DNA of 64,000 nucleotides from Acidimicrobiales bacterium (GCA_020628865.1 JAHDEJ010000017.1:1534-65533); one strand, 5' to 3'. Numbered from the stretch's first letter, positions 25,625 to 54,384 are shown. The notes: generated from the sequence alone by a model not told the origin. Translations and numbers: made by a program.

Positions 25625-25625
25625 G

Positions 25626-29369: not shown

Positions 29370-29389
29370 CGGGTGCCGATCGGCAAAAA

Positions 29390-30757: not shown

Positions 30758-30797
30758 TCGGCTGGACTCGACGATTCCTGAACCTGTGGCCGTTGGG

Positions 30798-32501
30798 TCA
30801 GCCCACCGGTCGACGGACGAATCGGATCACCTGGACGTCGAGGAAGCCCAGCTCGTCGACGATCTCGGTCGCCGCCCATCCGGGAAACTCCGCGGTGATC
30901 TGCTCCTTGCCGATCCAGTGGAACTCGGTCGCCTCGGTGCTGCCGAGCAACTCGGCCAGTTCGGTCCGGTCGGGTGCATAGGGTGCGCTCAGCCAGGATC
31001 GGCCGTTGGACAGCTCGCCGAATTCGCGGGCCTTGAACGGGCTTCGCCAGACGACGATGTCGTCCGGATCGGTGAGTTGTGCGATGCGTTCGCCGGCGTC
31101 GCCGATCTCGTTCGTACGAATGGCGGTCCACGTCGCGCCGAGCAGCGACACGACAACGGACAGTGCCACGACGATGCGCAGCGCAATCGGTGAGCGGGCG
31201 GCGAGCCAGACCAGACCCATCACGGTCAACGTGAGGCCGGAGGTGAGGATGTACCGGCCGCCCCATTGCGGAAACGCGCCGGCAGCGAAGGCGGTGGCGG
31301 CGACCACGGGAAGGGGCCCGACGCCGAGGATTCCGACGAGCCACCAGCGCTCCTTCATCATGCCGGCGAGTCCGAAAAGTGCGGCCGGACCGGCGACTGC
31401 GAGTCCGGGCACGAACCCGAGTCCGAGGTAGACGAAGAGGATCGCCCAGACGGTCCACGCGGAAACCATCGCCTTCGCCAGAGCCGCAGGCGGCGCGCCC
31501 GAGCCTCGGGCGAGTGACAGCGCAAATGTGGCGGTCGTGAGGAGAATGGCGGCACTCAGAATCCAGGAGATCGGCGAGGTCGACGACATGGTGAACACCG
31601 TCGTCCCGAGAATCGAAAGGACCCGATCGGCGGCGTCCGTGCCCGCCGAGCCCAGCGTGGATGCACCCCGGGAGGCACGTGCGCTGCCACCGAGTACGAC
31701 GATTTCGAGGGCCGTGTGCAGACCGAGCGGCACGAGTGCCGCCGCGGCCATGAGCGCGCCGCGACCGATGGCGGCGACGGCACGCCGTTGAACGAGGAGG
31801 GCGCCGACGAGCGCCACTCCGGCGACGAAGCCGTAGACGAGCGCCTCCTGCCGCATCGTTGCCGCCAGGCCGTAGCCCAGTCCGGCAATCACCGCCGCGC
31901 GGGCCGGAGCTCGATCGGTCACGGCATCGAGTACGCCGACGAGGCCGATGGTCATCAGTGCGAGGCCCCACGAGTGTTCCCACACGTCGAGCGCGTAGAT
32001 CAGCGCGGGCGACGCCAGCCCGATCGTCCAGATGGACAGGGTTCCGTCATCGGTGGGCCGAAGCCGGCGATGCAACGCTCCGGCGGCGAGGGCGGCGGCG
32101 ATCGAACCGAGCATCGGGATGAGCAGAATGGCTCGGGGACCACCGACAGCCCACAGCGGCCGGGCCACGTAGATCATCGTCAGCGATGTCGTGTTCACCC
32201 ATGTTCCATTCTCCGTTTGGGCGGTGTGGGCGAAGGGGTGGAAGCGACCGGTGGGGTCTGCGGAATCGAACCAGTAGCCGATGTCCGGGTCCCAGTCGCC
32301 GCGTTCGACCATGGCGTCGATGCTGACGGTCTTGCCGCCGACGTCGGTCGACAGGTGACCGCGTGGGTCGATCGCAAGCGATACGAGGCCGTAGATGAGG
32401 AGAAGTGTGACGGCGATCGGTCTGGGCCGCCGGTACCAGGCCCGGGCGTCGGTGGACGCGACGGGCTCCGCTTCCGGGCGCGGCTCGACCATTGTGTCCA
32501 T
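30798..32501 (-). CDS. large polytopic membrane protein, GT-C-fold-like (ArnT/PMT/DUF2029-type glycosyltransferase or polymerase/ligase-like), with a C-terminal soluble domain
   Basis: This 567-aa ORF has about 11-13 predicted TM helices and an acidic first loop (AIDPRGHLSTDVGG...DWDPD). It is the first gene of the co-directional glycan cluster. The call rests on topology only. Confidence 0.55.
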   Translation of the reverse strand: MDTMVEPRPEAEPVASTDARAWYRRPRPIAVTLLLIYGLVSLAIDPRGHLSTDVGGKTVSIDAMVERGDWDPDIGYWFDSADPTGRFHPFAHTAQTENGTWVNTTSLTMIYVARPLWAVGGPRAILLIPMLGSIAAALAAGALHRRLRPTDDGTLSIWTIGLASPALIYALDVWEHSWGLALMTIGLVGVLDAVTDRAPARAAVIAGLGYGLAATMRQEALVYGFVAGVALVGALLVQRRAVAAIGRGALMAAAALVPLGLHTALEIVVLGGSARASRGASTLGSAGTDAADRVLSILGTTVFTMSSTSPISWILSAAILLTTATFALSLARGSGAPPAALAKAMVSAWTVWAILFVYLGLGFVPGLAVAGPAALFGLAGMMKERWWLVGILGVGPLPVVAATAFAAGAFPQWGGRYILTSGLTLTVMGLVWLAARSPIALRIVVALSVVVSLLGATWTAIRTNEIGDAGERIAQLTDPDDIVVWRSPFKAREFGELSNGRSWLSAPYAPDRTELAELLGSTEATEFHWIGKEQITAEFPGWAATEIVDELGFLDVQVIRFVRRPVG

Positions 32502-38609: not shown

Positions 38610-40490
38610 ATGCACGAGGGAATGGACCGGGATTCACGGCGCGCCCAGGAAGCGGACCGCCTCTTCGAGGAGCAACGAGCTCGTATCAGCACGCTCGATG
38701 CGGCGGGCATCTTCGGCGCGGCCGTGTTCGCCTCGGTGATGTTCTGGGGACAGCCGTTGGTGATGGCCTGGTCCGTCGTCCTGTTCTCCCAGGTCGTGTC
38801 GGGGTTCTTCACCCGTCGGGTGGGCGAGCCCCTCAGCCGAATGATGGAGCTCTGGTGGGTGTCCGGGAGTTCGTTGGCATGGGCCGTGCTTCCGCTACTT
38901 GCGTTCAATGAGGCAGGTCAGGTCGAGGGCGCATGGGTGCTCACGTCCATCCTCGTGTTCGGGGTCGCGAGCGATGCCGTCTACCTGCCACAGACCTACG
39001 AAAAGAACGTCGTGCTCACCAGCGTGGCGTATTCGATTCCCTATCTCCTCGTGCTTGCCTACCAGGACATGTGGTCGCCGGTGATCCTCGTGTTCGGCAT
39101 CCTCATCCACGTCGGTTGGGGAGCCGTCGGCATCTCGGGACTGGTCGACGACCTGATCAGTCGACGTGTCGACGCCGTCATCTCCGCCGAGCGTGCACAT
39201 CTCTCGGCGCGAACCGATGGCCTGACCGGCCTGCTGAATCGTTCGGGGGTCATGGCGGAGCTGCGCCAACTCGCCGGATCGGATGCGGTCGTGCACTGTG
39301 TCTTCGTCGACTTGGATGACTTCAAGTCCGTCAACGATCAGCTCGGCTACGAGGCTGGTGATCGCCTGCTCAGCCGTTTGGGGCTGTCGCTCCGCGCCGT
39401 CTTCCCACCCGACTGGAAGGTCGGTCGATTCGGCGGCGACGAATTCATCGCGGTCGGGGTCGGCGGAGATCTCGAGCACATCGCGCAACAGCTGACCTCG
39501 CTTCGGATCGCGCCCGAGACCGGGCTCTTCGCTCGACGCACACGCTTTGTGCACGCATCGGCCGGTATCGCATCACTTCCGATCCGTGTCGGCGAAGCAG
39601 ACGAACTGGTGTCGCATGCGAGCGCTGCGGTCCGCGAAGCGAAGTCCCGCGGGAAGAGCACCGTCGTGATGAGTGATGAGACGTTTCGGGAGAACCTGCG
39701 ACGCGGCCGCCTCCGGGCCGCGGCCTTGGAACAGGGGATCGCACGCGGGGAGTTCGTTGGATTCGTGCAGCGCATCGTCGACCTCGACACCGGGCTGACC
39801 CGCGGGTTCGAGGTCCTCGCACGTTGGCAGCGGGATGACGAGCTGGTGCCTCCCGGTCTCTTCGTCGAACAGGTGGAGCGGCAGCATCTGCAGCGCGAAT
39901 TCGACCGGGCGATGTTGGATCGTGGGATCGAACTGCTGCAGTCGCTCGATGCACAGGGACGCACCGATCTGACCGTGTCCGTCAACATCTTCGCCTCGCA
40001 TCTGCTCGATGCCGGTCTGCCGGATTTCCTGCGCGACCGACTCGATCGAGCAGCCGTGGATTCCGGTCGTCTCGTGCTCGAGGTCACGGAGTCCGATGAT
40101 CTCTCCGCTGGCGATGTGGCGCTCGAGGTCGCAAATGCGCTTCGGGAGATGGGAATCGGTCTGTCGATCGATGACTTCGGCACCGGCTACTCCTCGATGA
40201 CGCAACTTCTCAGTTTTCCCTTCACGGAGATGAAGCTCGACCGTTCGCTCGTCGATCGCGTCGGCGCACCCGACGCCGACGACCTCCTGAAGGCGCTGTG
40301 CGACTTCGGACGCCGCCATGGTCTGCAGGTGGTCGCCGAAGGCATCGAGGGAGATCGGCAACTCGAGGCCATTCGTCGATTGGGTGTCGAGGTCGGTCAG
40401 GGCTTCCACTTCCACCGGCCGACCGCCGCCGAAGCCGCCCTTGCGGAACTGGCCGCCGAGGTGTCGGCCACCGACTTGTCTGCCGCCTGA
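38610..40490 (+). CDS. membrane-bound GGDEF-EAL protein (intact GGDEF; EVL-variant EAL)
   Basis: The N-terminal region has about 6 TM helices. The GGDEF domain shows RTDGLTGLLNRSG and RFGGDEFIAVG. The EAL domain shows FEVLARWQ, EVTESD, DDFGTGYSSM, KLDRSLV, AEGIEG and GQGFHFHRP. Confidence 0.85.
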   Translation: MHEGMDRDSRRAQEADRLFEEQRARISTLDAAGIFGAAVFASVMFWGQPLVMAWSVVLFSQVVSGFFTRRVGEPLSRMMELWWVSGSSLAWAVLPLLAFNEAGQVEGAWVLTSILVFGVASDAVYLPQTYEKNVVLTSVAYSIPYLLVLAYQDMWSPVILVFGILIHVGWGAVGISGLVDDLISRRVDAVISAERAHLSARTDGLTGLLNRSGVMAELRQLAGSDAVVHCVFVDLDDFKSVNDQLGYEAGDRLLSRLGLSLRAVFPPDWKVGRFGGDEFIAVGVGGDLEHIAQQLTSLRIAPETGLFARRTRFVHASAGIASLPIRVGEADELVSHASAAVREAKSRGKSTVVMSDETFRENLRRGRLRAAALEQGIARGEFVGFVQRIVDLDTGLTRGFEVLARWQRDDELVPPGLFVEQVERQHLQREFDRAMLDRGIELLQSLDAQGRTDLTVSVNIFASHLLDAGLPDFLRDRLDRAAVDSGRLVLEVTESDDLSAGDVALEVANALREMGIGLSIDDFGTGYSSMTQLLSFPFTEMKLDRSLVDRVGAPDADDLLKALCDFGRRHGLQVVAEGIEGDRQLEAIRRLGVEVGQGFHFHRPTAAEAALAELAAEVSATDLSAA

Positions 40491-40491
40491 C

Positions 40492-43281
40492 TCAGTTGTC
40501 GAGCAGTGGCTGGTCCAGCGCGATGGAGCCGTTCGGGTTCTGCACGGTGAGCCGACCGTCGACCACCCGGTAGACGGTCGTCGCGCCGTCGGTACCCACG
40601 TTCGTCGCCTCGAAGCCGCCGGCGACCTCGACGGCCGGCAGGGTGATCGACACCGCCGTCGACCGTTCGGCGCCGTGATACCACAGCGCTCCGTCCTCAT
40701 CGGCGCAGATCCAGAGGGCGAATCGTTCGGTGGCATCGATGAGCACCGGACGAAGTGTTGCCTCGTCGCGAGTTTTCTGAACGTCGGCGACGGCCTGGGC
40801 CGCGCAGCCGCCCAAGGCAAGCCCGAGCGGAGAGTCGCCGCCGGCGGCTTCACGCTGCGCCTGTTCGACGATGTCGTCAACCGTGTCCGGCGAGTCGCCG
40901 AGGTCGACCGTGACGGTCCAGCCCGCGGCGACGTCCCGCCCGTCGCCATCGGAAGCCCGGCCGAGCGCAAACACGGCGCCATCGAACTCGACGACCGACC
41001 AGAATTCCTGGCGGCCCTCGACACGGAGCTCGTCGGAGTCCCGCGTGGTCCAGCGTTCCTCGGAAGGGTCGTCGGCGGTGATCAGCTGCCAGATGGCTCC
41101 GTCGACCAGTCCCTGCGTCAGGGCTGCGGTTCCGGCGATCTCCGCCGTGATGCCGACGGCGAACACGCCGGCTCGCGTGGCGACGACATCGTGAGCTCGG
41201 GCGTCGCCGACGCCGGACGGCAGCTGGTGGAGTTGTGGCTCGACCCCGCCGACATCGACCACGAGAGCGACCGGCTCCACGCTGGTGCCGATCGTTCGGT
41301 TGCCGACGGCGACGACGCGGTCGCCCACGAGGTCGACCGCTTGTAGCTCGACACCCTCGATCGGGGGAAGCAGGGAAGACCAGACACCGTCGCGCCGGCC
41401 CAGAACAAGGCTCTCGGCGGTTCCATCGGTCTCGGCGTGGCCGACGACCACGGCAATGTCTCCGGCAACGGCCACGTCGGTGAGTTCTCCCGGGCCGGGA
41501 ATCTGGAGCGGAACCTGGGCCCACACCGGATCGGTCCAATCGTCGCCCTGGGCCACCACCCAGAGGCCGGGCTGGGCAACCCCATCCACGGCCGAGCTTC
41601 CGACGACGAGGAACTCGCCTCGAGTGTTGTCGCCGGCCGCAGCCAGCAGCCGCTGTGGGCCGGGTCCGGTGAACGAGTCGTCGGTCGTGGGTCGCATCCG
41701 GGCCGCTCGGTCGCCGAGCCAGGCGACGCCATCGGTGCCGGTGCGGCCGGAGTCGCCGACCGCAAGGAAGGCGACGCCGTCGAGCAGCCCGATGCCCCGG
41801 AGGCGCTGGTCCGCAGGGTCGCTCCCGGCGACGGTCGCGAACGCCACCTGATGGGTCCACGAACCCGTGGCGTCCATGGTCCACATGACGCTCTGCTGTT
41901 CTGAAGCCGTCTCACCGTCTCCGGCGGAACCCACCACGGTGAGACCGAGCTGGTTGGCCACCGCACCGAACATGATGCCCACGTCCCCGTCGGGAGCGGT
42001 GAAGGCGTCCTGATCGATACGGACGAGGGTTGGGGTGATCTCCAGCTCCGTGTCGTCCCCGGGCCCACCATCGGCCGCGGCCGGATCGTCGCCCACCCAC
42101 ACCGATTGGAACAACAACGCGCCGGCCACGCCGAGGGCGGCGAGGCCGAGCAGGACCACCGCGGCCGTGCGGCCGCGCCGCGGCGTCCGTGTGGCCGGTG
42201 CCATCGCTGGCGGCACGGCGATCTCGGGGCGAAGCGGTCGTGCGACGATGGTCTCGACCGGTGGGAGGACCTCGGTCTGGTCGGGGCGGGTGAAGTCGGC
42301 GAGGGTTGCGTCCGGATCCGGTCGTTCCGGTTCCGCCGGCGGTGCAACGACCGGCGGCGCCGGTTCGGGGGCGACGGTCACCGTGGGTGCGGGTTCGGCC
42401 GGCACCGTCGGCGTCGGCTCCGGGCGCACGGAAGAGATTCCAGGCGCCGGTGTGGGCGGGCGGCCGAGGAGCACCTCGGCCTCGTTCAAGCGTCGGCCGA
42501 ACTCCTCGGCGGTCTGCGGGCGTTCCCCCGGATCCTTGGCCAGCACGTCGTCGAGGAGATCGGAGAGTGGCGCGGGGACATCGAACTGGGCGAGGGGAGG
42601 CGCCGGGTTCTCCAGGATGCGTCGGATGACCATGGCCTTGTTGTCGCTCGCCCCGGACTTGAAGGGCGCACGGCCGAGCAGCATCTCGTAGAGCGAGATG
42701 CCGAGTTGGTAGATGTCGCCACGCCCGTCGAAACCATGATTGTGGAGGATTTCCGGCGGCGTGTAGGCGAGCGTGCCGATGATCGACTGTGCGGCCGTGA
42801 GTTGGCTCTGTCCCATGAGACGGGCGATGCCGAAGTCGGCGAGCTTGGCGCCGGTGCCGTCGTCGAGGATGTTGGCCGGCTTGATGTCTCGATGGAGGAC
42901 GCCGCTGCGATGGGCGGCCATGAGCGCCGAACAGAGCTGGACGCCGATGCGGGTCACCGTCGACCAGTGGAAGGCCCCGTTCGTCGTGAGCTGCTCCTTG
43001 ACGGAACCGCCATCGACGTACTCGAGTGCCATCCAGTGGTGACCGTCCTCGTTCTCCCCGCTGTCGAGAATGCCGACGATGTGCGGGTGGCCACCCAGGG
43101 CCGACATGGAGAGGCGCTCCCGTTCGAAGCGTTTCAGATCGCTGGTGTCGTGCACATGGGAGAAGAGCATCTTGATCGCGACTTCGGCGCCGTCGGGATC
43201 GATGGCGCGGTGAACGGAGGCGAAGCCGCCACGGCCCACCTGTTCCAGAATCTCGTACCCCGCGATGTTCGGTGTTGCCAC
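40492..43281 (-). CDS. Hanks-type Ser/Thr protein kinase with a Pro-rich linker, one TM helix and a large repeat-containing ectodomain
   Basis: The start is GTG 43281, with AGGGAG 7 nt upstream. Kinase motifs are GRGGFASV, VAIKML, HRDIKPANIL, DFGIA and TLAYTPPE. The TM helix is AAVVLLGLAALGVAGALLF. The part of ORF 40492..44940 upstream of 43281 is an out-of-frame read of the neighbouring gene. Confidence 0.85.
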   Translation of the reverse strand: MATPNIAGYEILEQVGRGGFASVHRAIDPDGAEVAIKMLFSHVHDTSDLKRFERERLSMSALGGHPHIVGILDSGENEDGHHWMALEYVDGGSVKEQLTTNGAFHWSTVTRIGVQLCSALMAAHRSGVLHRDIKPANILDDGTGAKLADFGIARLMGQSQLTAAQSIIGTLAYTPPEILHNHGFDGRGDIYQLGISLYEMLLGRAPFKSGASDNKAMVIRRILENPAPPLAQFDVPAPLSDLLDDVLAKDPGERPQTAEEFGRRLNEAEVLLGRPPTPAPGISSVRPEPTPTVPAEPAPTVTVAPEPAPPVVAPPAEPERPDPDATLADFTRPDQTEVLPPVETIVARPLRPEIAVPPAMAPATRTPRRGRTAAVVLLGLAALGVAGALLFQSVWVGDDPAAADGGPGDDTELEITPTLVRIDQDAFTAPDGDVGIMFGAVANQLGLTVVGSAGDGETASEQQSVMWTMDATGSWTHQVAFATVAGSDPADQRLRGIGLLDGVAFLAVGDSGRTGTDGVAWLGDRAARMRPTTDDSFTGPGPQRLLAAAGDNTRGEFLVVGSSAVDGVAQPGLWVVAQGDDWTDPVWAQVPLQIPGPGELTDVAVAGDIAVVVGHAETDGTAESLVLGRRDGVWSSLLPPIEGVELQAVDLVGDRVVAVGNRTIGTSVEPVALVVDVGGVEPQLHQLPSGVGDARAHDVVATRAGVFAVGITAEIAGTAALTQGLVDGAIWQLITADDPSEERWTTRDSDELRVEGRQEFWSVVEFDGAVFALGRASDGDGRDVAAGWTVTVDLGDSPDTVDDIVEQAQREAAGGDSPLGLALGGCAAQAVADVQKTRDEATLRPVLIDATERFALWICADEDGALWYHGAERSTAVSITLPAVEVAGGFEATNVGTDGATTVYRVVDGRLTVQNPNGSIALDQPLLDN

Positions 43282-43366
43282 CGTTGACTCCCTTGCCGGG
43301 ATCGTGCTGATCGCCGATCCGACAGTCTGACACGGAACGCGCAGCGTTCGGCAGCGTGCGCCGGAG

Positions 43367-45562
43367 TCAGGCCAGTGGCGTCGGAGCGACCGCGTCGCCG
43401 CCGTCACCGGGGTCCGGATCCGGTGGCTCAGGCTCCGGCTCGGGTTCCGGAACCGTGGTGGTGGTCGTTGTTGTGGTCGTGGTCGTTGTTGTGGTCGTGG
43501 TCGTCGTCGTACTTGTGCTGGATGTGCTCGACGTGCTGGAGGTCGTGGTGGTCGGCTCCGGAGCCGTCGTCGTGGTGGTGGTCGTCGTTGTCGTCGTGGT
43601 TGTCGAGGTCGTGGTGGTGGATGTGGACGACGTGGTCGTGGTCGTCGTCGGCGCCGCCGTCGTGGTCGTCGGCTCCGGAACCGTTGAGGTGGTCGTGGTC
43701 GTAGTTGTTGTCGACGTCGTTGTGGTGGTGGTGGCGGTCGTGGTGGGCGCCTCGGTCGTCGTCGTGGTGGTGGGCGCAATCGTCGTGGCCGTCGTCGTGG
43801 TGGGAGCCTCGGTCGTGGTGGTCGTCGTCGGCGGGTCGGTTGGTGTGGGCGGCTCCGTCGTGATGACGGTCGGCGCCGTCGTGGGGGCCTCGGTGGTGGT
43901 CGTCGGTTCTTCCGTTGTGGTGGGGGCCTCGGTGGTGGTCGTCGGCGCAGCGGTCGTGGTGGTCGTCGAGGGCTCCGTCGTCGGTGCGTCGGTGGGTTCA
44001 GGATCCGGTGTCGGCTCCTCGACCACATCGAGCACCTCGGTGGGCACGGTGGTTGCGGGTTCGGCGGGGGCCGCGGTCGTGGTGGTCGTCGACGGCTCGA
44101 CGACCGATCGTGGTGCGAGCGTGGTACTGGTGCGCTGGATCGTGGGCGGCACGAATCGGGTGGTCGGCACCGCTGCGGTGGTGGGGGTGGACGCGTCCGT
44201 CGACGCCGGTGCAGCGGTCGTCGTCGTGCTCGTGGAGGCGACTGTGCTCGAGGTCTCCTGCTCCACGGTCGACGGAGCCAACGACGGAGCGACAGTTGGT
44301 GAGGGCACGCTCGTCGTCGGTCCGACCAGCTGGGTCTCGGCAGCAAGGGAAGGAAGCAGTTCGCCGTCGTCGCCGGCAACCGGTACGGATCCGTCCGGAC
44401 CCTCGACGACGAAGAGACCGCTGCCCTCGCCGACAGCGTCGGCCTGGCTGGCCTCCCTCGAGACGCCGAACTTGGGCACGAGTCGGGCCTGGCGGTCCAC
44501 GTCCACGACCGCCGCCATCCGTCCGAAGGTGTCGTTCGCCCAGACGACACCGTTGTGGACCAGCACTTCGAACTCGACGTTCGGCGCAACGAACGGGACC
44601 GTGGTCTGCTCAGCGGTGTCGAGCTCGATGCGCAGCACGGTTCCGTTGGCCCAGTTGGGGACGTAGGCGACGTCCTCGCTAATGACCGGGGGACCGTAGC
44701 GCCACTCCTGCTGTTCGAGATCGATGGCGCGACACGGCAGGTTGGGCGCCGCGCCGAGCGGGCTGAGCAGCAGTTCGTTCCGCTGCCGATCGACCATCGG
44801 GAGATCGACGGCACTGGCGGAGGCGGTTCCAATGGCGACATCGGTGGTCGAACTGGCGATGCACTGGCTCTCCACGAGGCGTTCACCGGCCACACGCTGG
44901 ACTTCGAGCCGCACGTTGTCGACCAACAGCACACCATCACTCGACGTGGTCAGCTGCGGAACCGCAGTGGTTTCCGTGAGCTCGACGATCCGACGGAAGT
45001 CGGTGTCTTCGGATCCCATGTGGTGAATCGCCTGGCCGTTGCCGTCGACGGCGTAGATGCCGTCACGCGCGAGGACAGCGCTCGAGATGCCACCGGTGAA
45101 CCCGACCACCGTGTGTTCGAACGTCGTCAGGTCCACGCGGTCGACGCGGGCGGCGCCGACCACAACGACTCGGTCGCCGGCTCCGTGGAGTTCGATCTCC
45201 CCTTCGGCCACGCCGAGATCCATCAGGTGGGTGATGCGATGCGTTGCCCGATCGACGAGCACGAGGGTGCGCGTCTCATGGTTGGCAACAGCGACGCGTG
45301 TGGAGCCGGCGTGCGCCGAGATCCGTTGGCCGGGCTCGGCCACCTGGATGGTGTTCTGCACGTCGAGGGATTCGCTGTTGACCTCGACGATGGCGCCCGC
45401 CGAGCTCGTCTCGAACCAGATGGAGGCGTCCGAAATTGCGACAGATGCGGACGCCTTGGGGTCGAATTGGAAGATGGCGTAGCCGAGCGCGAGAACGGCA
45501 AGCGCGACAACGATGGCGAACGGCTGCGGGCCACGCAGGTTGATTCGTTCTCGTTTCGCCAT
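43367..45562 (-). CDS. signal-anchored extracytoplasmic protein: beta-rich globular domain of about 400 aa plus a threonine-dominated (mucin-like) C-terminal tail of about 310 aa
   Basis: The start is at MAKRERINLRGPQPFAIVVALAVLALGYAIF (ATG 45562). The tail contains TTTTTEAPTTT-type units and runs of up to 19 consecutive Thr, ending VPEPEPEPEPPDPDPGDGGD. The gene lies 85 nt upstream of the kinase on the same strand. Confidence 0.75.
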   Translation of the reverse strand: MAKRERINLRGPQPFAIVVALAVLALGYAIFQFDPKASASVAISDASIWFETSSAGAIVEVNSESLDVQNTIQVAEPGQRISAHAGSTRVAVANHETRTLVLVDRATHRITHLMDLGVAEGEIELHGAGDRVVVVGAARVDRVDLTTFEHTVVGFTGGISSAVLARDGIYAVDGNGQAIHHMGSEDTDFRRIVELTETTAVPQLTTSSDGVLLVDNVRLEVQRVAGERLVESQCIASSTTDVAIGTASASAVDLPMVDRQRNELLLSPLGAAPNLPCRAIDLEQQEWRYGPPVISEDVAYVPNWANGTVLRIELDTAEQTTVPFVAPNVEFEVLVHNGVVWANDTFGRMAAVVDVDRQARLVPKFGVSREASQADAVGEGSGLFVVEGPDGSVPVAGDDGELLPSLAAETQLVGPTTSVPSPTVAPSLAPSTVEQETSSTVASTSTTTTAAPASTDASTPTTAAVPTTRFVPPTIQRTSTTLAPRSVVEPSTTTTTAAPAEPATTVPTEVLDVVEEPTPDPEPTDAPTTEPSTTTTTAAPTTTTEAPTTTEEPTTTTEAPTTAPTVITTEPPTPTDPPTTTTTTEAPTTTTATTIAPTTTTTTEAPTTTATTTTTTSTTTTTTTTSTVPEPTTTTAAPTTTTTTSSTSTTTTSTTTTTTTTTTTTTAPEPTTTTSSTSSTSSTSTTTTTTTTTTTTTTTTTTTVPEPEPEPEPPDPDPGDGGDAVAPTPLA
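43370..44300 (-). repeat. low-complexity ACN-codon (Thr) / Pro-Glu-Ala coding repeat region
   Basis: The plus strand reads as reiterated GGTCGT/GTTGTG/GTGGTC units, for example GGTCGTTGTTGTGGTCGT twice in tandem near 43466-43501. The protein shows degenerate repeats of (E)APTTTT. Confidence 0.8.
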
Positions 45563-45744
45563 CTCTCGCCCGTCTCGTGGAGCGAACCCACCGTTGCTCC
45601 TCACTCATTGTCACCGAAAGGACGTTCGGTTGACAATATGAGTCGCGGAGCGTGTGAATTTGCCCACGCATCCGGGTCGCGATGAACGCGCGCAGTCGGT
45701 CATCGGACGGTCCCGGGCCGGGTTCCGAGGCGTAGAGTGGCGCG

Positions 45745-47553
45745 GTGGGCGCCGTCGAATCACTTCTCTTCCTTTTCCGGCGCATGCCCGCCGACCAGAA
45801 GCGGCTGCTGCTTGCGTCGCAGGTCGCTGCCGTGATCGCGGTGCTGTTCGAGCTGCTGATTCCCCAGCAGATTCAGCGCATCATCGATGAGGGCGTTCGC
45901 AACCAGGACACCGGGGTCGTCGTGGAGACGTCATTGCGGATGCTCGGGTTCGGCATCGCCTCGATGGTCTTCGGCGGTTTTGCCGCCTACCTGGCCTCGC
46001 GTGTGGCCACCGAAACCGCTCACACGATCCGGGTGGCGCTGTACGAGAAGGTCACGACCCTGTCGTTCGGCGACCTCGACCGGTTCCGGACCGGCCCCCT
46101 TCTCGTGCGCCTCACCAGCGACATCTCGATCCTGCGAAACGCCCTGATGATGGCGATCATCATGTTGATCCGTTCGCCGGTGATGTTGATCGGCGCGCTG
46201 ATTCTCGTGGCGACCGAGACGCCGTCGCTTCTCCTGCCGACACTCGTGGTGCTGGGCCTCAACCTCGCCGTGATTTCGTTCATCGTGCCCCGGCTCAACC
46301 CGCTCTACGCCGCACAGCAGCAGCGGCTCGACTCGCTCAACACGGTGCTGCAGGAGAATCTGGCCGGCGTCCAGGTCGTGAAGAACTTCGTTCGCCAGCC
46401 GCTCGAGGTCGAGCGCTACACCGATCGCAACGACGAGCTCTACGAGGCGTCGATGCGTCCGGCACGCCGGGTGGCCCTCCTCGAGCCGACCTTCGTGACG
46501 CTGATCTACCTCGCGGTCGCCGGGGCGCTGTTCTTCACCGCCCGCAGCGGGGTGGGTTCGCTGACCGCAGGCGAGCTCACCACGTTCTTCAACTATCTGC
46601 TCACCGCGATGCTGCCCATTGCGTTCCTGTCGTTCGTACTCCCCGAACTCGGCCGGCTCGGCACCTCCATGGGGCGATTCCGGGAGATCTTCCGCACGGT
46701 GCCCGATGTTCGGGAGCGTGAGGATGCCCAACCGTTCGGCGACATCGACGGCGCCATCGAATTCGATGACGTCACGCTGCACTACCTCGAGGCGGACGGC
46801 TCGCCGGCCGGGTCGCCGGTGCTCGACCAGGTCAGCTTTCGGATCGAACCGGGGGAGACGGTCGTCGTCATCGGCGCAACCGGCTCCGGGAAGACGTCGC
46901 TCGTCAGCTGCATCCCGCGTTTCTACGACGTGACCGATGGTGCCGTTCGCATCGATGGGGTGGACGTGCGCGACGTGCGAATCGCCGACCTGCGGCAGAC
47001 GATCGCCATCACGCTGCAGCAGGCCCACATCTTCACCGGTTCCGCGGAACACAACATCAAGATGGGTCGGCCCGAAGCCGGGGCCGAGCAGGTCGAGCGT
47101 GCGCTTCGGGTCGCCGACGCCGACACGTTCCTCCATCGGCTCCCTGATGGTATCGAAACGGACCTGGCCGAGAAGGGGACGAACCTGTCCGGCGGTCAGC
47201 GCCAACGCATCGCCCTGGCACGAGCGGTCGTGGCCCGCCCCCGAATCCTCATCCTCGACGACACGACGAGCGCGGTCGACGTCGCGACCGAAGCCCGGAT
47301 TCAGGCTCGCCTCGCCGCCGAGCACGCCGACACGACCGTCGTGATGGTGGCCCAGCGGGTCTCGGCCGCGCTGAGCGCCGACCGCATCCTGCTGCTCGAC
47401 CACGGTCGCCTCGTCGGCAACGGCACCCACGAAGAGCTGCTCGCGGCGAGCGAGCTCTATCGGACGATCGTCGAATCGCAGCTCGGCCCACTCGACGAGG
47501 TGGAGGAGCTGCTCCAAGCTGCACCGTCGGTCGACCCGGAGGTCGGCCGATGA
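45745..47553 (+). CDS. ABC exporter, fused permease-ATPase (type I exporter half-transporter, MdlA-like)
   Basis: Six TM helices are followed by the NBD: Walker A GATGSGKTS, signature LSGGQRQR and Walker B ILILDD. Confidence 0.9.
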   Translation: MGAVESLLFLFRRMPADQKRLLLASQVAAVIAVLFELLIPQQIQRIIDEGVRNQDTGVVVETSLRMLGFGIASMVFGGFAAYLASRVATETAHTIRVALYEKVTTLSFGDLDRFRTGPLLVRLTSDISILRNALMMAIIMLIRSPVMLIGALILVATETPSLLLPTLVVLGLNLAVISFIVPRLNPLYAAQQQRLDSLNTVLQENLAGVQVVKNFVRQPLEVERYTDRNDELYEASMRPARRVALLEPTFVTLIYLAVAGALFFTARSGVGSLTAGELTTFFNYLLTAMLPIAFLSFVLPELGRLGTSMGRFREIFRTVPDVREREDAQPFGDIDGAIEFDDVTLHYLEADGSPAGSPVLDQVSFRIEPGETVVVIGATGSGKTSLVSCIPRFYDVTDGAVRIDGVDVRDVRIADLRQTIAITLQQAHIFTGSAEHNIKMGRPEAGAEQVERALRVADADTFLHRLPDGIETDLAEKGTNLSGGQRQRIALARAVVARPRILILDDTTSAVDVATEARIQARLAAEHADTTVVMVAQRVSAALSADRILLLDHGRLVGNGTHEELLAASELYRTIVESQLGPLDEVEELLQAAPSVDPEVGR

Positions 47554-49307
47554 CCGCTCCCGGCCCACGCGTCCCATCGAACATCGGCGCAACGCTGCGC
47601 CGCCTCTTCGGCTACCTGTTGATCCGGCGGGTGGTCGTTGCGGGCGCGGTCCTGCTGCTGCTCGCCGGGCTGCTGTTGCAGTCCATCCAGCCGTTGTTGT
47701 TCGGCAACGCCGTCGACGACGTGTTCGAAGGCCAGACCGACGGACTCGGCAGTCAGGCGCTGCTCATTCTGGTGCTCGCGCTCGTCACGTTCGTCCTGCG
47801 GTGGGCGGCAGCGAACCTGATTGCCATCGCCGCACAAACGGCGATGCGTCGGCTCAGACAGGAACTGTTCGAGAAGCTGCAGACGTTGTCGCTCGGCTTT
47901 CACGAGTCCCGTTCGTCCGGCGACCTGATGAGCCGGGTCACGTCCGACACCGAGGTCATCAACACGTTCCTCTCGTCGTCGTTGTTCGGCCTGGTTTCGG
48001 CGATGATCCAGATGGTCGCCATCACGGTGATCATGTTCAGCCTGGACGTCGTCCTCGCCATCGTCGTCCTGTTGATCGCCCCGCTGTCGCTGCTGGTGAT
48101 GAGTCGGATCGGCAAGCAGGTCGCCCGCAATTTCACGATCCTGCAAGGAGCGGTCGGGTCGATCAACGGCTACCTCGAGGAGCGGGTCACCGGCCAGAAG
48201 ACGTTGCAGGCCTACGGGCAGCAGGGGGCAACGCTCGAGGAGCTGCGCGAGCGATCGCTGGTCGCCCGCGACGCCGATCAGAAGGCATCGTTCCTCGGCT
48301 GGATGGTGATGCCGACCGTGCGGCTGGTCGGCAACGCCGATGTGGCTGCCATCGCGTTGATCGGTGGGATCATGGCGTCGAACGGTCGGGTCGGGGTCGG
48401 CACCGTCGTGGCCTTCCTGGGTTTCTCTCAGCAGTTCGCCATGCCGGTCGGTGCCATTTCTCGTTCGATCAATTCCGCGATCCAGTCGGCAGCGGGTGCG
48501 AACCGCGTCTTCGAGCTCCTCGACGAACAGCCCGCCATCACGGATGGCGAGGCGGCCAGGCCCTTCTCGCGGGCGGAGGGCGACGTGGTCTTCGACAACG
48601 TCGACTTCAGCTACGACACCGGCGGGCAGATCCTTTTCGACAATTCGTTCCACGCCCGACCCGGGCAGATGATCGGCATGGTCGGCCCGACGGGTGCCGG
48701 AAAGTCCACCATCATCAACCTGATCGGCCGGTTCTACGAGATCGACGACGGCGAGATCCGTCTCGACGGGGAACCCATCGTCGAACTCAAGCTGGACGAC
48801 CTGCGGCTGCGGGCTGCCGTCGTGCTGCAGACGCCGTTCCTCTTCAGCGAGACCGTCATGTACAACCTCAAGTACGGGCGGAGCGACGCGTCCGACGAGG
48901 AATGCATCGAAGCGGCGAAGGATGCGAACGCCCATCGGTTCATCGAACGGCTGCCCGACGGCTACGACACGGTGCTCTCCGAGGGCGGATCGAACCTCTC
49001 GCAGGGACAACGGCAGCTGCTCACCATCGCCCGGGCGATCGTGGCTCGACCCGACGTGCTGATCCTCGACGAGGCGACCTCATCGGTCGACACCCGCACG
49101 GAACGTGCCATTCAGCTGGCGATGAATCGACTGATGGAAGGACGAACGTCGTTCGTCATCGCCCACCGCCTGTCGACCATCCGGCACGCCGATCTCATCA
49201 TCGCCCTGGACGGTGGCGTGATCCGGGAGATCGGCCCGCACGAGGAACTGCTCGCAAACCGCGGGTTCTACCACGACCTGTTCATGCAGCAGTTCGCTCG
49301 GACCTGA
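47550..49307 (+). CDS. ABC exporter, fused permease-ATPase (MdlB-like partner)
   Basis: The start overlaps the upstream stop (ATGA). It has Walker A GPTGAGKST, signature LSQGQRQL and Walker B VLILDEATS. It is probably the heterodimer partner of the preceding gene. Confidence 0.9.
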   Translation: MTAPGPRVPSNIGATLRRLFGYLLIRRVVVAGAVLLLLAGLLLQSIQPLLFGNAVDDVFEGQTDGLGSQALLILVLALVTFVLRWAAANLIAIAAQTAMRRLRQELFEKLQTLSLGFHESRSSGDLMSRVTSDTEVINTFLSSSLFGLVSAMIQMVAITVIMFSLDVVLAIVVLLIAPLSLLVMSRIGKQVARNFTILQGAVGSINGYLEERVTGQKTLQAYGQQGATLEELRERSLVARDADQKASFLGWMVMPTVRLVGNADVAAIALIGGIMASNGRVGVGTVVAFLGFSQQFAMPVGAISRSINSAIQSAAGANRVFELLDEQPAITDGEAARPFSRAEGDVVFDNVDFSYDTGGQILFDNSFHARPGQMIGMVGPTGAGKSTIINLIGRFYEIDDGEIRLDGEPIVELKLDDLRLRAAVVLQTPFLFSETVMYNLKYGRSDASDEECIEAAKDANAHRFIERLPDGYDTVLSEGGSNLSQGQRQLLTIARAIVARPDVLILDEATSSVDTRTERAIQLAMNRLMEGRTSFVIAHRLSTIRHADLIIALDGGVIREIGPHEELLANRGFYHDLFMQQFART

Positions 49308-50646: not shown

Positions 50647-50928
50647 TCAGCTGCTGATGGCCTGTTCGAGCAGGAACCCGGCGACCAGGATCACGGAGCC
50701 GATCATGCCCGCAACGGCAACACCCAGGAACACCACCAGACCGATGAGCAGGAACAACGAGGTGATGCGCCGCAGCACCGACGGGTACGCGTCGGGGCCG
50801 TACTCTGCCTGCGCAGGCGGCTGGAAGCCGACGCCCAACTTCTGCAACAGCGAACGCTCGGGACGAGGCTCGATGGGCAGTTGCCGAGGTGACGGAGGGT
50901 TTTCACCGTGTCGTGCGATGCTGGTCAT
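50647..50928 (-). CDS. possible small membrane protein (two C-terminal TM helices)
   Basis: This 93-aa ORF has a hydrophobic hairpin ITSLFLLIGLVVFLGVAVAGMIGSVILVAGFLL and G/C-biased third positions. Its start abuts or overlaps the divergent PDZ-protease start. Confidence 0.4.
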   Translation of the reverse strand: MTSIARHGENPPSPRQLPIEPRPERSLLQKLGVGFQPPAQAEYGPDAYPSVLRRITSLFLLIGLVVFLGVAVAGMIGSVILVAGFLLEQAISS

Positions 50929-52275: not shown

Positions 52276-52362
52276 ATTGGCGCTGTTCTTGGGCTCGGCC
52301 CGCCAAAAGTGGGCCATGGTGATCACAGAACCACGTTTCGTGGGGACGTACCATTGCGTTCG

Positions 52363-54345: not shown

Positions 54346-54384
54346 GCTCACGTCGGCGCATGGCAGCGATATCCTCGACGGGAC

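What the first reader, a model, noticed from the sequence alone, without database searches (positions are those of the whole stretch)
43367..45562. Signal-anchored protein with a ~310-residue poly-threonine, mucin-like C-terminal tail, co-directional with the kinase
An N-terminal TM anchor and a beta-rich domain of about 400 aa come first. The last 310 or so residues are then dominated by Thr, with scattered Pro/Glu/Ala/Ser. The tail contains degenerate (E)APTTTT units, uninterrupted Thr runs of up to 19, and an acidic PEPEPEPEPPDPDPGD end. There is no sortase motif and no C-terminal anchor. Such composition is the hallmark of heavily O-glycosylated stalks. Actinomycetota O-mannosylate Thr-rich exported proteins through GT-C enzymes of the Pmt family. 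The window also encodes a GT-C-like protein within a glycan cluster. The tail could alternatively serve as a phospho-acceptor surface or a spacer.
Basis: partly seen in the sequence, partly recalled or inferred. Interest (0 to 1): 0.7.

Follow-up and report, generated by a model that had tools for sequence, protein, structure and literature searches.

The report
Exported propeller protein with poly-threonine tail
An uncultured Acidimicrobiales bacterium encodes an exported beta-propeller protein ending in about 310 disordered residues that are mostly threonine; this probably sugar-coated filament replaces the rigid PKD stalk of its relatives and sits beside a receptor kinase gene, so it is a real and unusual variant of a known kind of surface protein.

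Summary
The gene lies on the minus strand (45562 to 43367, 731 aa). It encodes an N-terminal hydrophobic helix, a confidently predicted YVTN/NHL-type beta-propeller (residues ~45-365), and a disordered tail that is 55% Thr over its last 212 residues, with a 19-Thr run and a PEPEPE acidic end. Five full-length orthologues in Acidimicrobiales MAGs carry such tails (263-464 aa). Synonymous changes outnumber non-synonymous ones, all indels are in frame, and a second assembly is identical, so it is not an artefact. The propeller belongs to an unannotated family of at least 339 proteins. About half the surveyed members follow it with PKD arrays, and only this clade has a poly-Thr tail. A receptor Ser/Thr kinase with its own propeller ectodomain follows 85 nt downstream in six lineages. 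Two more distant kinase orthologues lack the partner, and the spacer holds a conserved promoter-like motif. O-glycosylation is plausible by precedent (streptococcal Ser/Thr-rich regions, actinobacterial Pmt substrates) but untested. The window has no Pmt, only a weak putative membrane glycosyltransferase 11 kb away. A conserved A-S-A motif means the "anchor" could be a cleaved signal peptide. Topology argues against the phospho-acceptor idea. This is a new variant of a known kind, of moderate interest.

The parts
43367..45562 (-). Complete CDS of the target protein (731 aa plus stop)
   Evidence: Translation. Composition and GC3 of 0.82. Called as a 731-aa gene on the identical contig L011.
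45464..45526 (-). N-terminal hydrophobic helix (residues ~13-33), preceded by K3, R4, R6 and R10. It is either a signal anchor or the h-region of a signal peptide.
   Evidence: AF2 helix 13-31. Hydropathy segment 15-33.
45446..45454 (-). A37-S38-A39, a conserved AxA motif and possible signal-peptidase I cleavage site (cleavage not shown)
   Evidence: Column counts in A3: A 21/29, S 22/29, A 25/29, with G/P at -5/-4.
44468..45430 (-). YVTN/NHL-type beta-propeller (residues ~45-365; 31 strands, 7 or 8 blades) with two conserved Cys (C234, C277)
   Evidence: AF2 pLDDT mostly above 90. Foldseek top hit 1l0q_A. Family profile against PDB: 1l0q_A E=7e-22 and Pizza6 designs ~1e-14. Cys conservation. 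No Pfam or NCBIfam hit.
44003..44467 (-). Proximal tail (residues 366-520). It holds a short conserved post-propeller element (GLFVVEG..DGSVPVAGDDGE), then a disordered Thr/Pro/Ala/Ser-rich linker with the conserved island TTRFVPPTIQR.
   Evidence: pLDDT below 50 from residue 374. Alignment of five orthologue tails. 42 synonymous against 11 non-synonymous differences for residues 411-520.
43454..44002 (-). Distal Thr-dominated tail (residues 521-703): degenerate x-A-P-T(3-6) units followed by near-pure Thr/Ser runs of up to 19 T
   Evidence: Composition and runs. Degenerate 21-39 nt repeats. In-frame indels against L002. Interleaved ACC/ACG/ACA codons.
43370..43453 (-). Acidic Pro-Glu/Asp C-terminal end (VPEPEPEPEPPDPDPGDGGDAVAPTPLA), with no anchor
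   Evidence: Conserved in L002 and expanded to a long (PE)n in L003.
43282..43366 (-). 85-nt spacer to the kinase gene. It has no terminator-like hairpin. It contains a conserved TGnnAGAnT element (43324-43332, extended -10-like) and an AAGGGAG Shine-Dalgarno sequence.
40492..43281 (-). Receptor-type Hanks Ser/Thr kinase (929 aa): kinase domain residues 9-258 (VAIK, HRDIKPAN, DFG, TPPE present), Pro-rich linker, TM helix 373-391, and a beta-propeller-like ectodomain (residues 392-929; propeller ~419-790)
   Evidence: Pfam Pkinase 1e-48. TM segment. Catalytic motifs. AF2 of the ectodomain with pLDDT 85-95 over ~370 residues. Foldseek hits to CylK, sialidases and Kelch. The exact protein is in public collections.
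45745..49307 (+). Divergent pair of ABC exporter genes (45745-47553 and 47550-49307). It neighbours the target in the window and in L001-L003, L009 and L011, but is absent from L004 and L005.
   Evidence: Pfam. tblastn. Gene tables.
38610..40490 (+). Convergent GGDEF-EAL gene, conserved downstream of the kinase in L003-L005
   Evidence: Pfam. tblastn.
30798..32501 (-). Membrane protein with 8 predicted TM segments, a weak putative glycosyltransferase. It is the only candidate extracytoplasmic glycosyltransferase in the window, and no link to the target is shown.
   Evidence: NCBIfam NF047440, E=1.3e-17, 63.8 bits, below the cut-off of 200. No Pfam hit. TM count.

Best explanation
The gene encodes an exported cell-envelope protein with three parts:
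1. An N-terminal Sec-type hydrophobic segment. It either anchors the protein with the N-terminus inside, or is removed at a conserved A-S-A site.
2. A 7-8-bladed YVTN/NHL-type beta-propeller, probably stabilised by one disulfide.
3. A ~365-residue C-terminal region that does not fold.

The last ~210 residues of that region are more than half threonine. The tail has regularly spaced Pro, no Lys, no Cys, almost no aromatic residues and a net acidic charge, and it ends in a (Pro-Glu)n rod.

I infer that the tail is an extended, hydrophilic, mucin-like filament. At about 0.25 nm per residue it would be several tens of nm long, enough to cross and overtop a Gram-positive wall. It is probably O-glycosylated outside the membrane by a glycosyltransferase that uses a lipid-linked sugar, as shown for C-terminal Ser/Thr-rich disordered regions of streptococcal membrane proteins and for actinobacterial Pmt substrates.

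In evolutionary terms the tail is a lineage-specific replacement of the PKD/Ig-domain stalk that follows the same propeller in about half the surveyed family members. Its role is therefore physical (spacer, brush, protease and aggregation shield, surface presentation) rather than sequence-specific.

In this Acidimicrobiales clade the gene sits directly upstream of a receptor Ser/Thr kinase whose ectodomain is a second, different propeller. The protein probably works in the same envelope-sensing module as that kinase, on the outer face of the membrane.

Shown: architecture, fold, disorder, conservation, selection and gene neighbourhood. Inferred: export topology, glycosylation, wall-spanning role and partnership with the kinase.
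For: Architecture and composition:
-.
- AF2 gives pLDDT above 90 for residues 45-365 (all-beta) and below 50 for residues 374-645.

Fold of the N-domain:
- Foldseek top hit is 1l0q_A, an archaeal S-layer YVTN propeller plus PKD.
- The family profile hits 1l0q_A at E=7e-22 and Pizza propeller designs at ~1e-14.

Export:
- Two Cys at conserved positions in most members fit an exported, disulfide-bonded domain.

Family and tail swap:
- The family has 339 hits at E<=1e-3. Members share the same N-terminal helix and propeller, followed by 7-12 PKD domains, PKD+PASTA+NHL, or PKD+beta-helix.
- Of 109 representatives with a tail of at least 80 aa, only this one exceeds 40 Thr per 100 residues.

Tail conservation:
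- Five full-length orthologues at 54-95% identity all have Thr/Pro-rich acidic tails of 263-464 aa. Their composition is conserved, but not their sequence or length.
- L003 replaces much of the poly-Thr with (PE)n.
- Selection is purifying in the proximal tail, and the distal tail shows only in-frame indels.

Kinase neighbour:
- The kinase lies directly downstream in the window and in L002, L003, L004, L005 and L007/L008.
- There is no terminator in the spacer.
- The kinase ectodomain is predicted to be a propeller.

Precedent for glycosylated extracytoplasmic C-terminal Ser/Thr-rich disordered regions, including one on PknB: PMC12041528.
Against: - No glycosylation evidence of any kind is available.
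- No Pmt/GT39 is found in the 64-kb window. The only candidate membrane glycosyltransferase is a sub-threshold match 11 kb away, inside a polysaccharide cluster.
- The conserved A-S-A motif may mean the protein is released rather than anchored.
- The Thr tail is distal to the globular domain, so it is not a stalk that lifts a head domain.
- Partnership with the kinase is weakly supported. Two more distant kinase orthologues have no such upstream gene: L009 sits directly beside the ABC pair, and L010 also lacks it.
- The PKD-tailed relatives P0009 and P0005 have no kinase neighbour.
- The spacer carries a conserved promoter-like element that is also present in L009.
- The whole region is syntenic among these MAGs, so adjacency may simply reflect conserved gene order.
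- The two ectodomains share no sequence similarity.
Confidence: 0.5

Rival explanations
1. The protein is a released surface-coat, S-layer-like or adhesin protein. The N-terminal segment is a cleavable signal peptide cut after A-S-A39. The mature propeller plus tail is secreted, or held in the wall only by its glycosylated tail. It acts independently of the kinase, and the gene adjacency is inherited synteny.
For: - The AxA motif with a helix breaker at -5/-4 is conserved across the family.
- No sortase, lipobox or C-terminal anchor occurs anywhere in the family.
- The best structural and sequence match is an archaeal surface-layer protein with the same propeller+PKD layout.
- PKD-tailed relatives have no kinase neighbour.
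- Kinase orthologues exist without the gene.
- The kinase has a conserved promoter-like element of its own.
- The region is broadly syntenic.
Against: - The hydrophobic core is 17-19 residues, long for an h-region and enough to span the membrane.
- An Arg directly follows the core in 22 of 29 members.
- The target-kinase pair persists in L004 and L005, where the neighbouring ABC pair is absent.
- The spacing is short (79-120 nt), with no terminator.
Confidence: 0.3
2. The tail is an unglycosylated entropic spacer or bristle. Poly-Thr/Pro and (PE)n alone give an extended, soluble, protease-poor chain, and no sugar is added.
For: - L003 swaps much of the poly-Thr for (PE)n, which cannot be O-glycosylated, yet keeps the extended acidic character.
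- No protein glycosyltransferase is identified in the window.
- The tail has no Lys and few Arg, so it offers few tryptic-type cleavage sites.
Against: - Thr is strongly preferred over Ser (117 against 14 in the last 212 residues). Thr, not just hydrophilicity, is kept in four of five orthologues.
- Published cases of such extracytoplasmic tracts are glycosylated, and the sugars protect them from proteolysis (PMC12041528).
Confidence: 0.15
3. The Thr tract is a phospho-acceptor surface for the adjacent Ser/Thr kinase.
For: Only the adjacency and the abundance of Thr.
Against: - The kinase catalytic domain is N-terminal to its TM helix and therefore cytoplasmic.
- The target has a K/R-rich N-terminus and a single hydrophobic helix, followed by a domain with a conserved Cys pair whose family carries PKD and PASTA modules. 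These are all extracytoplasmic features.
- The tail and the catalytic domain are therefore on opposite sides of the membrane.
Confidence: 0.03
4. The tract is an assembly artefact, or it is not translated in this frame.
For: - Short-read contigs of orthologues often break exactly at the tail (L001, L007, L008).
- Other frames across the tract are also open.
Against: - A second assembly gives an identical sequence.
- Five orthologues from different MAGs keep the tract in frame with the propeller.
- Synonymous changes outnumber non-synonymous ones, and indels are multiples of 3.
- There are no long pure codon repeats.
Confidence: 0.02

Closest known systems
Extracytoplasmic C-terminal Ser/Thr-rich intrinsically disordered regions of streptococcal membrane-associated proteins (PrsA, PBP1a, LCP, PknB, CdaR, FtsQ), glycosylated by GtrB/PgtC2 or the Pgf pathway (PMC12041528)
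   Same: Both are poly-Ser/Thr disordered tracts at the C-terminus of a membrane-associated, extracytoplasmic protein in a Gram-positive envelope. In streptococci the sugars are added outside the membrane by GT-C-type enzymes and protect the tract from proteolysis.
   Different: The tail here is far longer and almost purely Thr. It sits on a propeller protein of an unannotated family in Acidimicrobiales. No GtrB/PgtC2 or Pgf homologue has been identified, and no glycosylation has been shown.
Actinobacterial Pmt (GT39) O-mannosylated Thr/Pro/Ala-rich regions, for example M. tuberculosis Apa (PMC3266650, PMC11727336) and, from my own knowledge, the Pro-Thr linkers of Cellulomonas cellulases
   Same: Same phylum, an exported protein, and Thr/Pro-rich low-complexity sequence with x-A-P-T-T-T units.
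   Different: Known substrates carry short tracts or linkers between domains, not a terminal 300-residue tail. No Pmt is found in the window, and its presence elsewhere in the genome is unknown.
Methanosarcina mazei surface-layer protein fragment with a YVTN beta-propeller and a PKD domain (PDB 1L0Q)
   Same: It is the best match by both fold and profile to the N-domain. The wider family has the same propeller-then-PKD order.
   Different: It is archaeal. The target clade has lost or replaced the PKD array with poly-Thr. Sequence identity is about 14%.
Fungal mucin-like wall sensors Wsc1, Mid2 and Msb2 (PMC2885430, PMC7915640, PMC3271078)
   Same: These are single-pass membrane proteins whose O-mannosylated Ser/Thr-rich rod spans the wall and feeds a kinase pathway.
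   Different: In the fungal sensors the rod lies between the head domain and the TM helix, and a cytoplasmic tail signals. Here the tract is the free distal end, the cytoplasmic part is only ~12 residues, and any signalling would have to pass through the neighbouring kinase. This is an analogy only.
Receptor Ser/Thr kinases with propeller sensor domains, such as M. tuberculosis PknD (NHL propeller). From my own knowledge, the Pizza designs were derived from this propeller; 'Pizza6' is the name PDB gives the hits.
   Same: The target propeller profile matches Pizza6 designs at ~1e-14 and kinase-derived blade fragments (8pkr/8pkq) at 1e-5 and 5e-3. The adjacent kinase also has a propeller ectodomain.
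   Different: Here the YVTN/NHL-like propeller is on a separate polypeptide. The kinase's own propeller is of a different type (CylK-, sialidase- or Kelch-like by fold).
Serine-rich repeat adhesins of Gram-positive cocci (from my own knowledge)
   Same: These are very long, glycosylated, hydroxy-amino-acid repeat regions that project a surface protein.
   Different: They are Ser-dipeptide repeats, LPXTG-anchored, exported by an accessory SecA2/Y2 locus and glycosylated in the cytoplasm. None of these features is present here.

Membership tests
YVTN/NHL-type beta-propeller | All-beta fold of ~40-residue four-stranded blades closing into a 6-8-bladed propeller | tested here: met
   AF2 predicts 31 strands over residues 47-363 with pLDDT above 90. 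More than 1000 propeller matches at E<=1e-3, top hit 1l0q_A.
YVTN/NHL-type beta-propeller | Sequence-profile similarity to a solved YVTN/NHL propeller | tested here: met
   Profile A3 against PDB sequences: 1l0q_A at 7.3e-22, Pizza6 at ~1e-14, YncE at 9e-7.
YVTN/NHL-type beta-propeller | Match to a curated Pfam or NCBIfam repeat or domain model | tested here: not met
   No Pfam or NCBIfam family at E<=1 for the single sequence. The domain family is not covered by a curated model.
Mucin-like (Pro/Thr/Ser) O-glycosylated domain | Long tract dominated by Thr/Ser with interspersed Pro | tested here: met
   77% T+S+P over the last 212 residues, and 52% over residues 420-731.
Mucin-like (Pro/Thr/Ser) O-glycosylated domain | Intrinsic disorder or an extended conformation | tested here: met
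   pLDDT below 50 across residues 374-645. The distal part reaches only ~50, with unreliable hairpins.
Mucin-like (Pro/Thr/Ser) O-glycosylated domain | Extracytoplasmic location | tested here: inconclusive
   This is inferred from the K/R-rich N-terminus plus a single hydrophobic helix, the conserved Cys pair, and the PKD/PASTA modules in relatives. No signal-peptide or topology predictor was available.
Mucin-like (Pro/Thr/Ser) O-glycosylated domain | Dense O-linked glycans on Thr/Ser | not testable with these tools
   This needs mass spectrometry or lectin blots.
Pmt (GT39) substrate system of Actinomycetota | A Pmt/GT39 enzyme encoded by the organism | tested here: inconclusive
   None of the ORFs of the window with 4 or more TM segments matches PMT or PMT_2. 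The rest of the genome could not be searched.
GtrB/GT-C (PgtC2-type) protein glycosylation | A GT2 polyprenyl-phosphate sugar synthase plus a GT-C membrane transferase with an extracytoplasmic acidic motif | tested here: inconclusive
   A GT2 gene (28326-29369) and an 8-TM putative glycosyltransferase (30798-32501; NF047440 at 63.8 bits, below the cut-off) lie in one cluster. That cluster also has a priming transferase and a flippase typical of polysaccharide synthesis. No homology to GtrB or PgtC2 was tested.
Sortase-, lipoprotein- or C-terminal-sorting-signal anchored surface proteins | LPXTG, lipobox Cys, or a PEP-CTERM/PGF-CTERM-type hydrophobic C-terminus | tested here: not met
   There is no such motif or C-terminal hydrophobic segment in the target or its orthologues. 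None was found across 116 family members apart from two chance LPxT-like strings.
Operon-coupled partner of the Ser/Thr kinase | Conserved adjacency and co-occurrence with the kinase | tested here: inconclusive
   The gene is adjacent to the kinase in six lineages. It is absent upstream of two more distant kinase orthologues. The spacer holds a conserved promoter-like motif. The region is broadly syntenic.

The most novel reading that the evidence does not exclude
The propeller-plus-poly-Thr protein is the extracellular half of a bacterial cell-wall-integrity or surface sensor. Its glycosylated filament threads through, or projects beyond, the peptidoglycan. Mechanical or chemical changes in the filament are read at the membrane by contact between its propeller, or its glycans, and the sialidase/Kelch-like propeller ectodomain of the neighbouring receptor kinase. 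This would be a two-polypeptide bacterial analogue of the fungal Wsc1/Mid2 mucin-like sensors.
Probability: 0.1. Interest if true: 0.8.

Novelty: new variant of a known kind. Interest (0 to 1): 0.45.

Why it matters
Long Ser/Thr-rich disordered tracts on exported bacterial proteins have only recently been recognised as a distinct, glycosylated class, and so far in Firmicutes (PMC12041528). This locus gives an extreme example in a different, uncultured actinobacterial class:
- a terminal tail of ~310 residues that is almost pure threonine;
- conservation in composition but not in sequence or length;
- a clean evolutionary comparison, because relatives carry PKD arrays in the same position.

It also defines a propeller family of at least 339 members that no curated model covers. 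It offers a testable pairing with a receptor kinase. Practically, it shows that such genes break short-read contigs and spawn spurious overlapping ORFs, so they are under-represented in protein databases.

Tried and rejected
- Pfam and NCBIfam searches on the whole protein and on the N-domain found nothing.
- The word-indexed homologue search found only three truncated relatives. The exhaustive profile search was needed to see the family.
- Similarity between the target propeller and the kinase ectodomain was tested by BLASTP. None is significant, so a duplicated sensor domain is rejected.
- The kinase ectodomain has no sequence match in PDB.
- A metagenome scan for more orthologues gave only one 1.5-kb fragment.
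- An exact look-up of the 731-aa protein returned 'not in the collection'. Yet the identical gene is present on contig L011, so the negative look-up is uninformative.
- Two literature searches for poly-threonine or glycoproteins in Acidimicrobiia or Actinomycetota gave nothing specific.
- PMC11727336 does not mention Acidimicrobiia.
- PEP-CTERM, PGF-CTERM and sortase sorting were considered because of the PEPEPE end. They are rejected because no hydrophobic or basic C-terminus follows.
- A folded Thr-rich beta-solenoid of antifreeze or ice-binding type was considered. It is rejected because pLDDT is about 50 or less, the runs are homopolymeric, and length varies among orthologues.
It was re-run with A2.
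Full report
**1. The observation**

The finding's coordinates hold a minus-strand gene. Its ATG is at 45562 and its stop codon at 43367-43369, giving 731 aa. On the plus strand the interval translates to Arg/Gly-rich nonsense with stops.

- The protein begins MAKRERINLRGPQP, followed by one hydrophobic segment (residues 15-33, mean hydropathy 2.38).
- Residues 40-420 have ordinary composition.
- Residues 420-520 are 28% Thr, 15% Pro, 14% Ala and 12% Ser.
- Residues 520-731 are 55% Thr, 15% Pro, 8% Ala, 7% Glu and 7% Ser.
- There are sixteen Thr runs of four or more. The longest has 19 residues (685-703).
- The C-terminus reads VPEPEPEPEPPDPDPGDGGDAVAPTPLA.
- There is no LPXTG-like motif and no C-terminal hydrophobic segment.
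- Nothing comparable occurs in any other frame of the window or of the related loci.

**2. The tract is real and translated**

- An 11,058-nt contig from a separate assembly of a public sequencing run (L011) is 100% identical to the window, tract included. The gene caller there also reports a 731-aa product.
- The orthologue in MAG CALBVR01 (L002) is 95% identical in the N-domain. Tail codons 411-610 differ at 72 synonymous and 14 non-synonymous positions (30 against 3 for residues 521-610).
- The distal poly-Thr part differs more (37 synonymous, 29 non-synonymous), but all indels are multiples of three.
- Thr codons are interleaved ACC, ACG and ACA. The longest run of one codon is 3, against a mean of 4.8 when the same codons are shuffled. 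The tract is therefore not a pure microsatellite.
- The large ORFs 40492..44940 (-) and 43356..44666 (+) that overlap the tract are open only because of the low-complexity sequence.

**3. The N-terminal domain**

- Pfam and NCBIfam give no hit.
- A word-indexed search of 5.8 billion proteins found only three truncated relatives.
- An exhaustive profile search of 1.84 billion representatives found 339 proteins at E<=1e-3, and 52 at E<=1e-10.
- With a 61-sequence alignment, AlphaFold2 predicts a helix at residues 13-31 and an all-beta domain of 31 strands over residues 47-363, with pLDDT mostly above 90.
- The best Foldseek match in PDB is 1l0q_A, the tandem YVTN beta-propeller and PKD domains of an archaeal surface-layer protein. 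Many 7-bladed propellers follow (BamB, YncE, NirS/NirN, Atg18).
- The family profile also finds 1l0q_A by sequence at E=7.3e-22. It finds Pizza6 propeller designs at about 1e-14, YncE at 9e-7, and kinase-derived blade fragments (8pkr/8pkq) at 1e-5 and 5e-3.
- The domain is thus a YVTN/NHL-type propeller of 7 or 8 blades that no curated model covers.
- Most members have exactly two Cys in this domain, at conserved positions (C234 and C277 here). This fits an exported, disulfide-bonded domain.

**4. The family and the tail swap**

In the more distant members (20-25% identity) the same N-terminal helix and propeller are followed by an acidic linker and then one of three arrangements:
- 7-12 PKD domains;
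- PKD plus PASTA plus NHL;
- PKD plus a right-handed beta-helix.

Among 109 representatives with at least 80 residues after the propeller, 56 have PKD signature motifs. Only the target exceeds 40 Thr in any 100-residue window; it reaches 72, and the next highest reaches 38. No member has a sortase signal. The poly-Thr tail is therefore a clade-specific replacement of a folded Ig-like stalk.

**5. Orthologues and tail variation**

Genome scans found four Acidimicrobiales MAG loci (L002-L005, 95-54% identity). All encode the propeller followed by a low-complexity tail.

| Locus | Tail length (aa) | Thr (%) |
|---|---|---|
| window | 366 | 40 |
| L002 | 371 | 41 |
| L003 | 263 | 20 |
| L004 | 457 | 48 |
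| L005 | 464 | 51 |

- Every tail has 13-19% Pro, no Lys, no Cys, 1-3 aromatic residues and an excess of acidic over basic residues.
- L003 replaces much of the poly-Thr with a long (Pro-Glu)n run.
- A family member with a PKD tail (P0012) ends in (EPPPEEE)n.
- What is conserved is the physical character of the tail (extended, hydrophilic, acidic), not its sequence.
- Two short elements are conserved: the post-propeller segment GLFVVEG..DGSVPVAGDDGE, and an island TTRFVPPTIQR shared by the window, L002 and L003.
- Short-read contigs of further relatives end at or inside the tail (L001, L007, L008). This explains why full-length sequences are rare in databases.

**6. Anchor or signal peptide?**

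The hydrophobic core is long (17-19 residues) and is preceded by K/R, which fits an N-in anchor.

However, five to eight residues after the core the family keeps F-R-x-G-x-x-A-S-A-x-V. The column counts are A37 in 21/29, S38 in 22/29 and A39 in 25/29, with Gly or Pro at -5/-4. That is the pattern of a signal-peptidase I site. I could not run a dedicated predictor, so both states remain open. In either case the propeller and the tail are outside the membrane.

**7. The kinase and the neighbourhood**

- Eighty-five nt downstream, on the same strand, GTG 43281 follows an AAGGGAG Shine-Dalgarno sequence and starts a 929-aa protein. The identical 929-aa protein is in public collections.
- It has a Hanks kinase domain at residues 9-258 (Pfam 1e-48) with VAIK, HRDIKPAN, DFG and TPPE motifs, followed by a Pro-rich linker and a TM helix at 373-391.
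- Its 538-residue ectodomain has no Pfam or PDB sequence match.
- AlphaFold2 with five sequences predicts a propeller for about 370 residues of the ectodomain (pLDDT 85-95).
- Foldseek's best matches are the CylK propeller, sialidases and endosialidases, and Kelch domains.
- The two ectodomains share no significant sequence similarity.
- The kinase directly follows the target gene in L002-L005, with spacers of 79-120 nt.
- Two contigs that carry a 54%-identical kinase begin inside an ORF ending TTTTAPTTTTTTTAAPTTTTTEAPADP*, about 95 nt upstream of the kinase start. That makes six lineages with the pair.
- No terminator-like hairpin lies in the spacer.

Against an obligatory partnership:
- A 49%-identical kinase (L009) sits directly beside the ABC exporter pair with no intervening gene.
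- A 38%-identical kinase (L010) has no Thr-rich ORF upstream.
- PKD-tailed relatives have no kinase neighbour.
- The spacer holds a conserved TGnnAGAnT element about 45 nt before the kinase start in all seven loci, including L009. It resembles an extended -10 box, so the kinase may have its own promoter.
- The whole region is syntenic among these MAGs, including the PDZ-Lon_C protease, a DivIVA-domain protein, UPF0182 and the convergent GGDEF-EAL gene. Adjacency may therefore partly reflect inherited gene order.
- The ABC pair is present in L001-L003, L009 and L011 but absent from L004 and L005.

**8. Glycosylation**

The inference rests on composition, extracytoplasmic location and precedent.
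[quoted passage not shown] The sugars protect these regions from proteolysis (PMC12041528).
- GT39 protein O-mannosyltransferases are reported in over 3,800 bacterial genomes and are known to act in Actinobacteria (PMC11727336).
- Nothing in the window shows the enzyme. All ORFs with 4 or more predicted TM segments were identified and scanned. None matches a PMT family.
- The cluster 20150-32501 encodes a sulfotransferase, a priming sugar transferase, a flippase-like protein, an AsnB-type amidotransferase, a DegT aminotransferase, an oxidoreductase and a GT2. This is an ordinary polysaccharide cluster.
- Its 8-TM ORF 30798-32501 has no Pfam hit. It matches the LA_3751/LA_3752 putative glycosyltransferase family at E=1.3e-17, at 63.8 bits against a cut-off of 200.
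- That ORF is a lead, not a Pmt. No link to the target is shown.

**9. Mechanism**

I think the most likely picture is as follows.
- A propeller is held at, or released near, the outer face of the membrane.
- It carries a probably glycosylated, acidic filament. At roughly 0.25 nm per residue (general knowledge of mucin-like chains) the filament is tens of nm long, enough to cross and overtop a Gram-positive wall.
- The filament does the job that a PKD array does in relatives: spacing, surface presentation and shielding.
- Because the tract is distal to the globular domain, it is a free brush rather than a stalk lifting a head.
- The phospho-acceptor idea fails on topology. The kinase domain is cytoplasmic and the tail is not.
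- A co-sensor role with the kinase is possible but weakly supported.

**10. Verdict**

This is a new variant of a known kind: an extracytoplasmic Ser/Thr-rich disordered tail, here extreme in length and purity, on an unannotated propeller family in Acidimicrobiales. Interest is moderate (0.45). The most novel reading still open is a two-protein wall sensor analogous to fungal Wsc1/Mid2. I give it a probability of about 0.1.

Noticed in passing
window 45608-45636 (between the target start at 45562 and the ABC gene start at 45745); L002 9926-9954: There is a near-perfect inverted repeat TTGTCA-N17-TGACAA (wider: ATTGTCACCGAA..TTCGGTTGACAAT), 45-75 nt upstream of the target ATG. The promoter scan scored it on both strands. 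It is conserved with one mismatch in L002 and was not found in L003-L005. It could be an operator for the divergent target and ABC promoters.
   Followed up: partly
window 43324-43332 (minus strand), in the 85-nt spacer before the kinase: The element TGTCAGACT (consensus TGnnAGAnT) is conserved about 45 nt upstream of the kinase start in seven loci, including L009, which lacks the target gene. It resembles an extended -10 box, so the kinase may be transcribed on its own.
   Followed up: partly
L009 1490-5708: A 745-aa orthologue of the kinase (49% identical ectodomain) lies directly beside the divergent ABC exporter pair, with only 179 nt between them and no propeller/poly-Thr gene. This is either a loss in that lineage or a gain in the others.
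   Followed up: partly
L001 (contig end at 5173); L007 1-90; L008 1-75: Short-read contigs of orthologous loci end at the start of, or inside, the Thr-rich coding tract. In L007 a 37-aa gene was called on the opposite strand within it. Such genes are systematically truncated or mis-called in public protein sets.
   Followed up: yes
window 40492-44940 (-) and 43356-44666 (+): Two very long spurious ORFs (1482 aa and 436 aa) run through the tail in other frames. The first fuses the off-frame tail to the true kinase frame and could mislead annotation.
   Followed up: yes
window 40495-42108 (-), kinase ectodomain: The kinase ectodomain is predicted to be a propeller whose closest folds are CylK, sialidases and endosialidases, and Kelch. 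Its last ~140 residues are of low confidence. Only four homologues were found among 5.8 billion proteins.
   Followed up: partly
window 20150-32501 (-): This polysaccharide cluster holds a sulfotransferase, a Bac_transf priming enzyme, a flippase-like protein, an AsnB-type amidotransferase, a DegT aminotransferase, a GFO oxidoreductase, a GT2, a 455-aa soluble ORF with no family match, and an 8-TM putative glycosyltransferase. It suggests a sulfated, amino-sugar-containing surface glycan.
   Followed up: partly
window 50908-57363 (+): A PDZ-PDZ-Lon_C protease, a 678-aa DivIVA-domain protein and UPF0182 lie beyond the ABC pair. They are syntenic in L002-L005. From my own knowledge, DivIVA homologues are known Ser/Thr-kinase substrates in Actinobacteria, so this may be a cell-envelope or growth-zone neighbourhood.
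   Followed up: partly
L003 11650-11830; protein P0012 C-terminus: Long acidic proline repeats occur at the extreme C-terminus: (PE)n of about 25 units in L003, and (EPPPEEE)n in a PKD-tailed family member. The same kind of end recurs across the family whatever the stalk type.
   Followed up: no
window 38610-40490 (+): A GGDEF-EAL protein with 4 predicted N-terminal TM segments lies convergent to the kinase, with only one base between the two genes (40490 and 40492). It is conserved in L003-L005.
   Followed up: no
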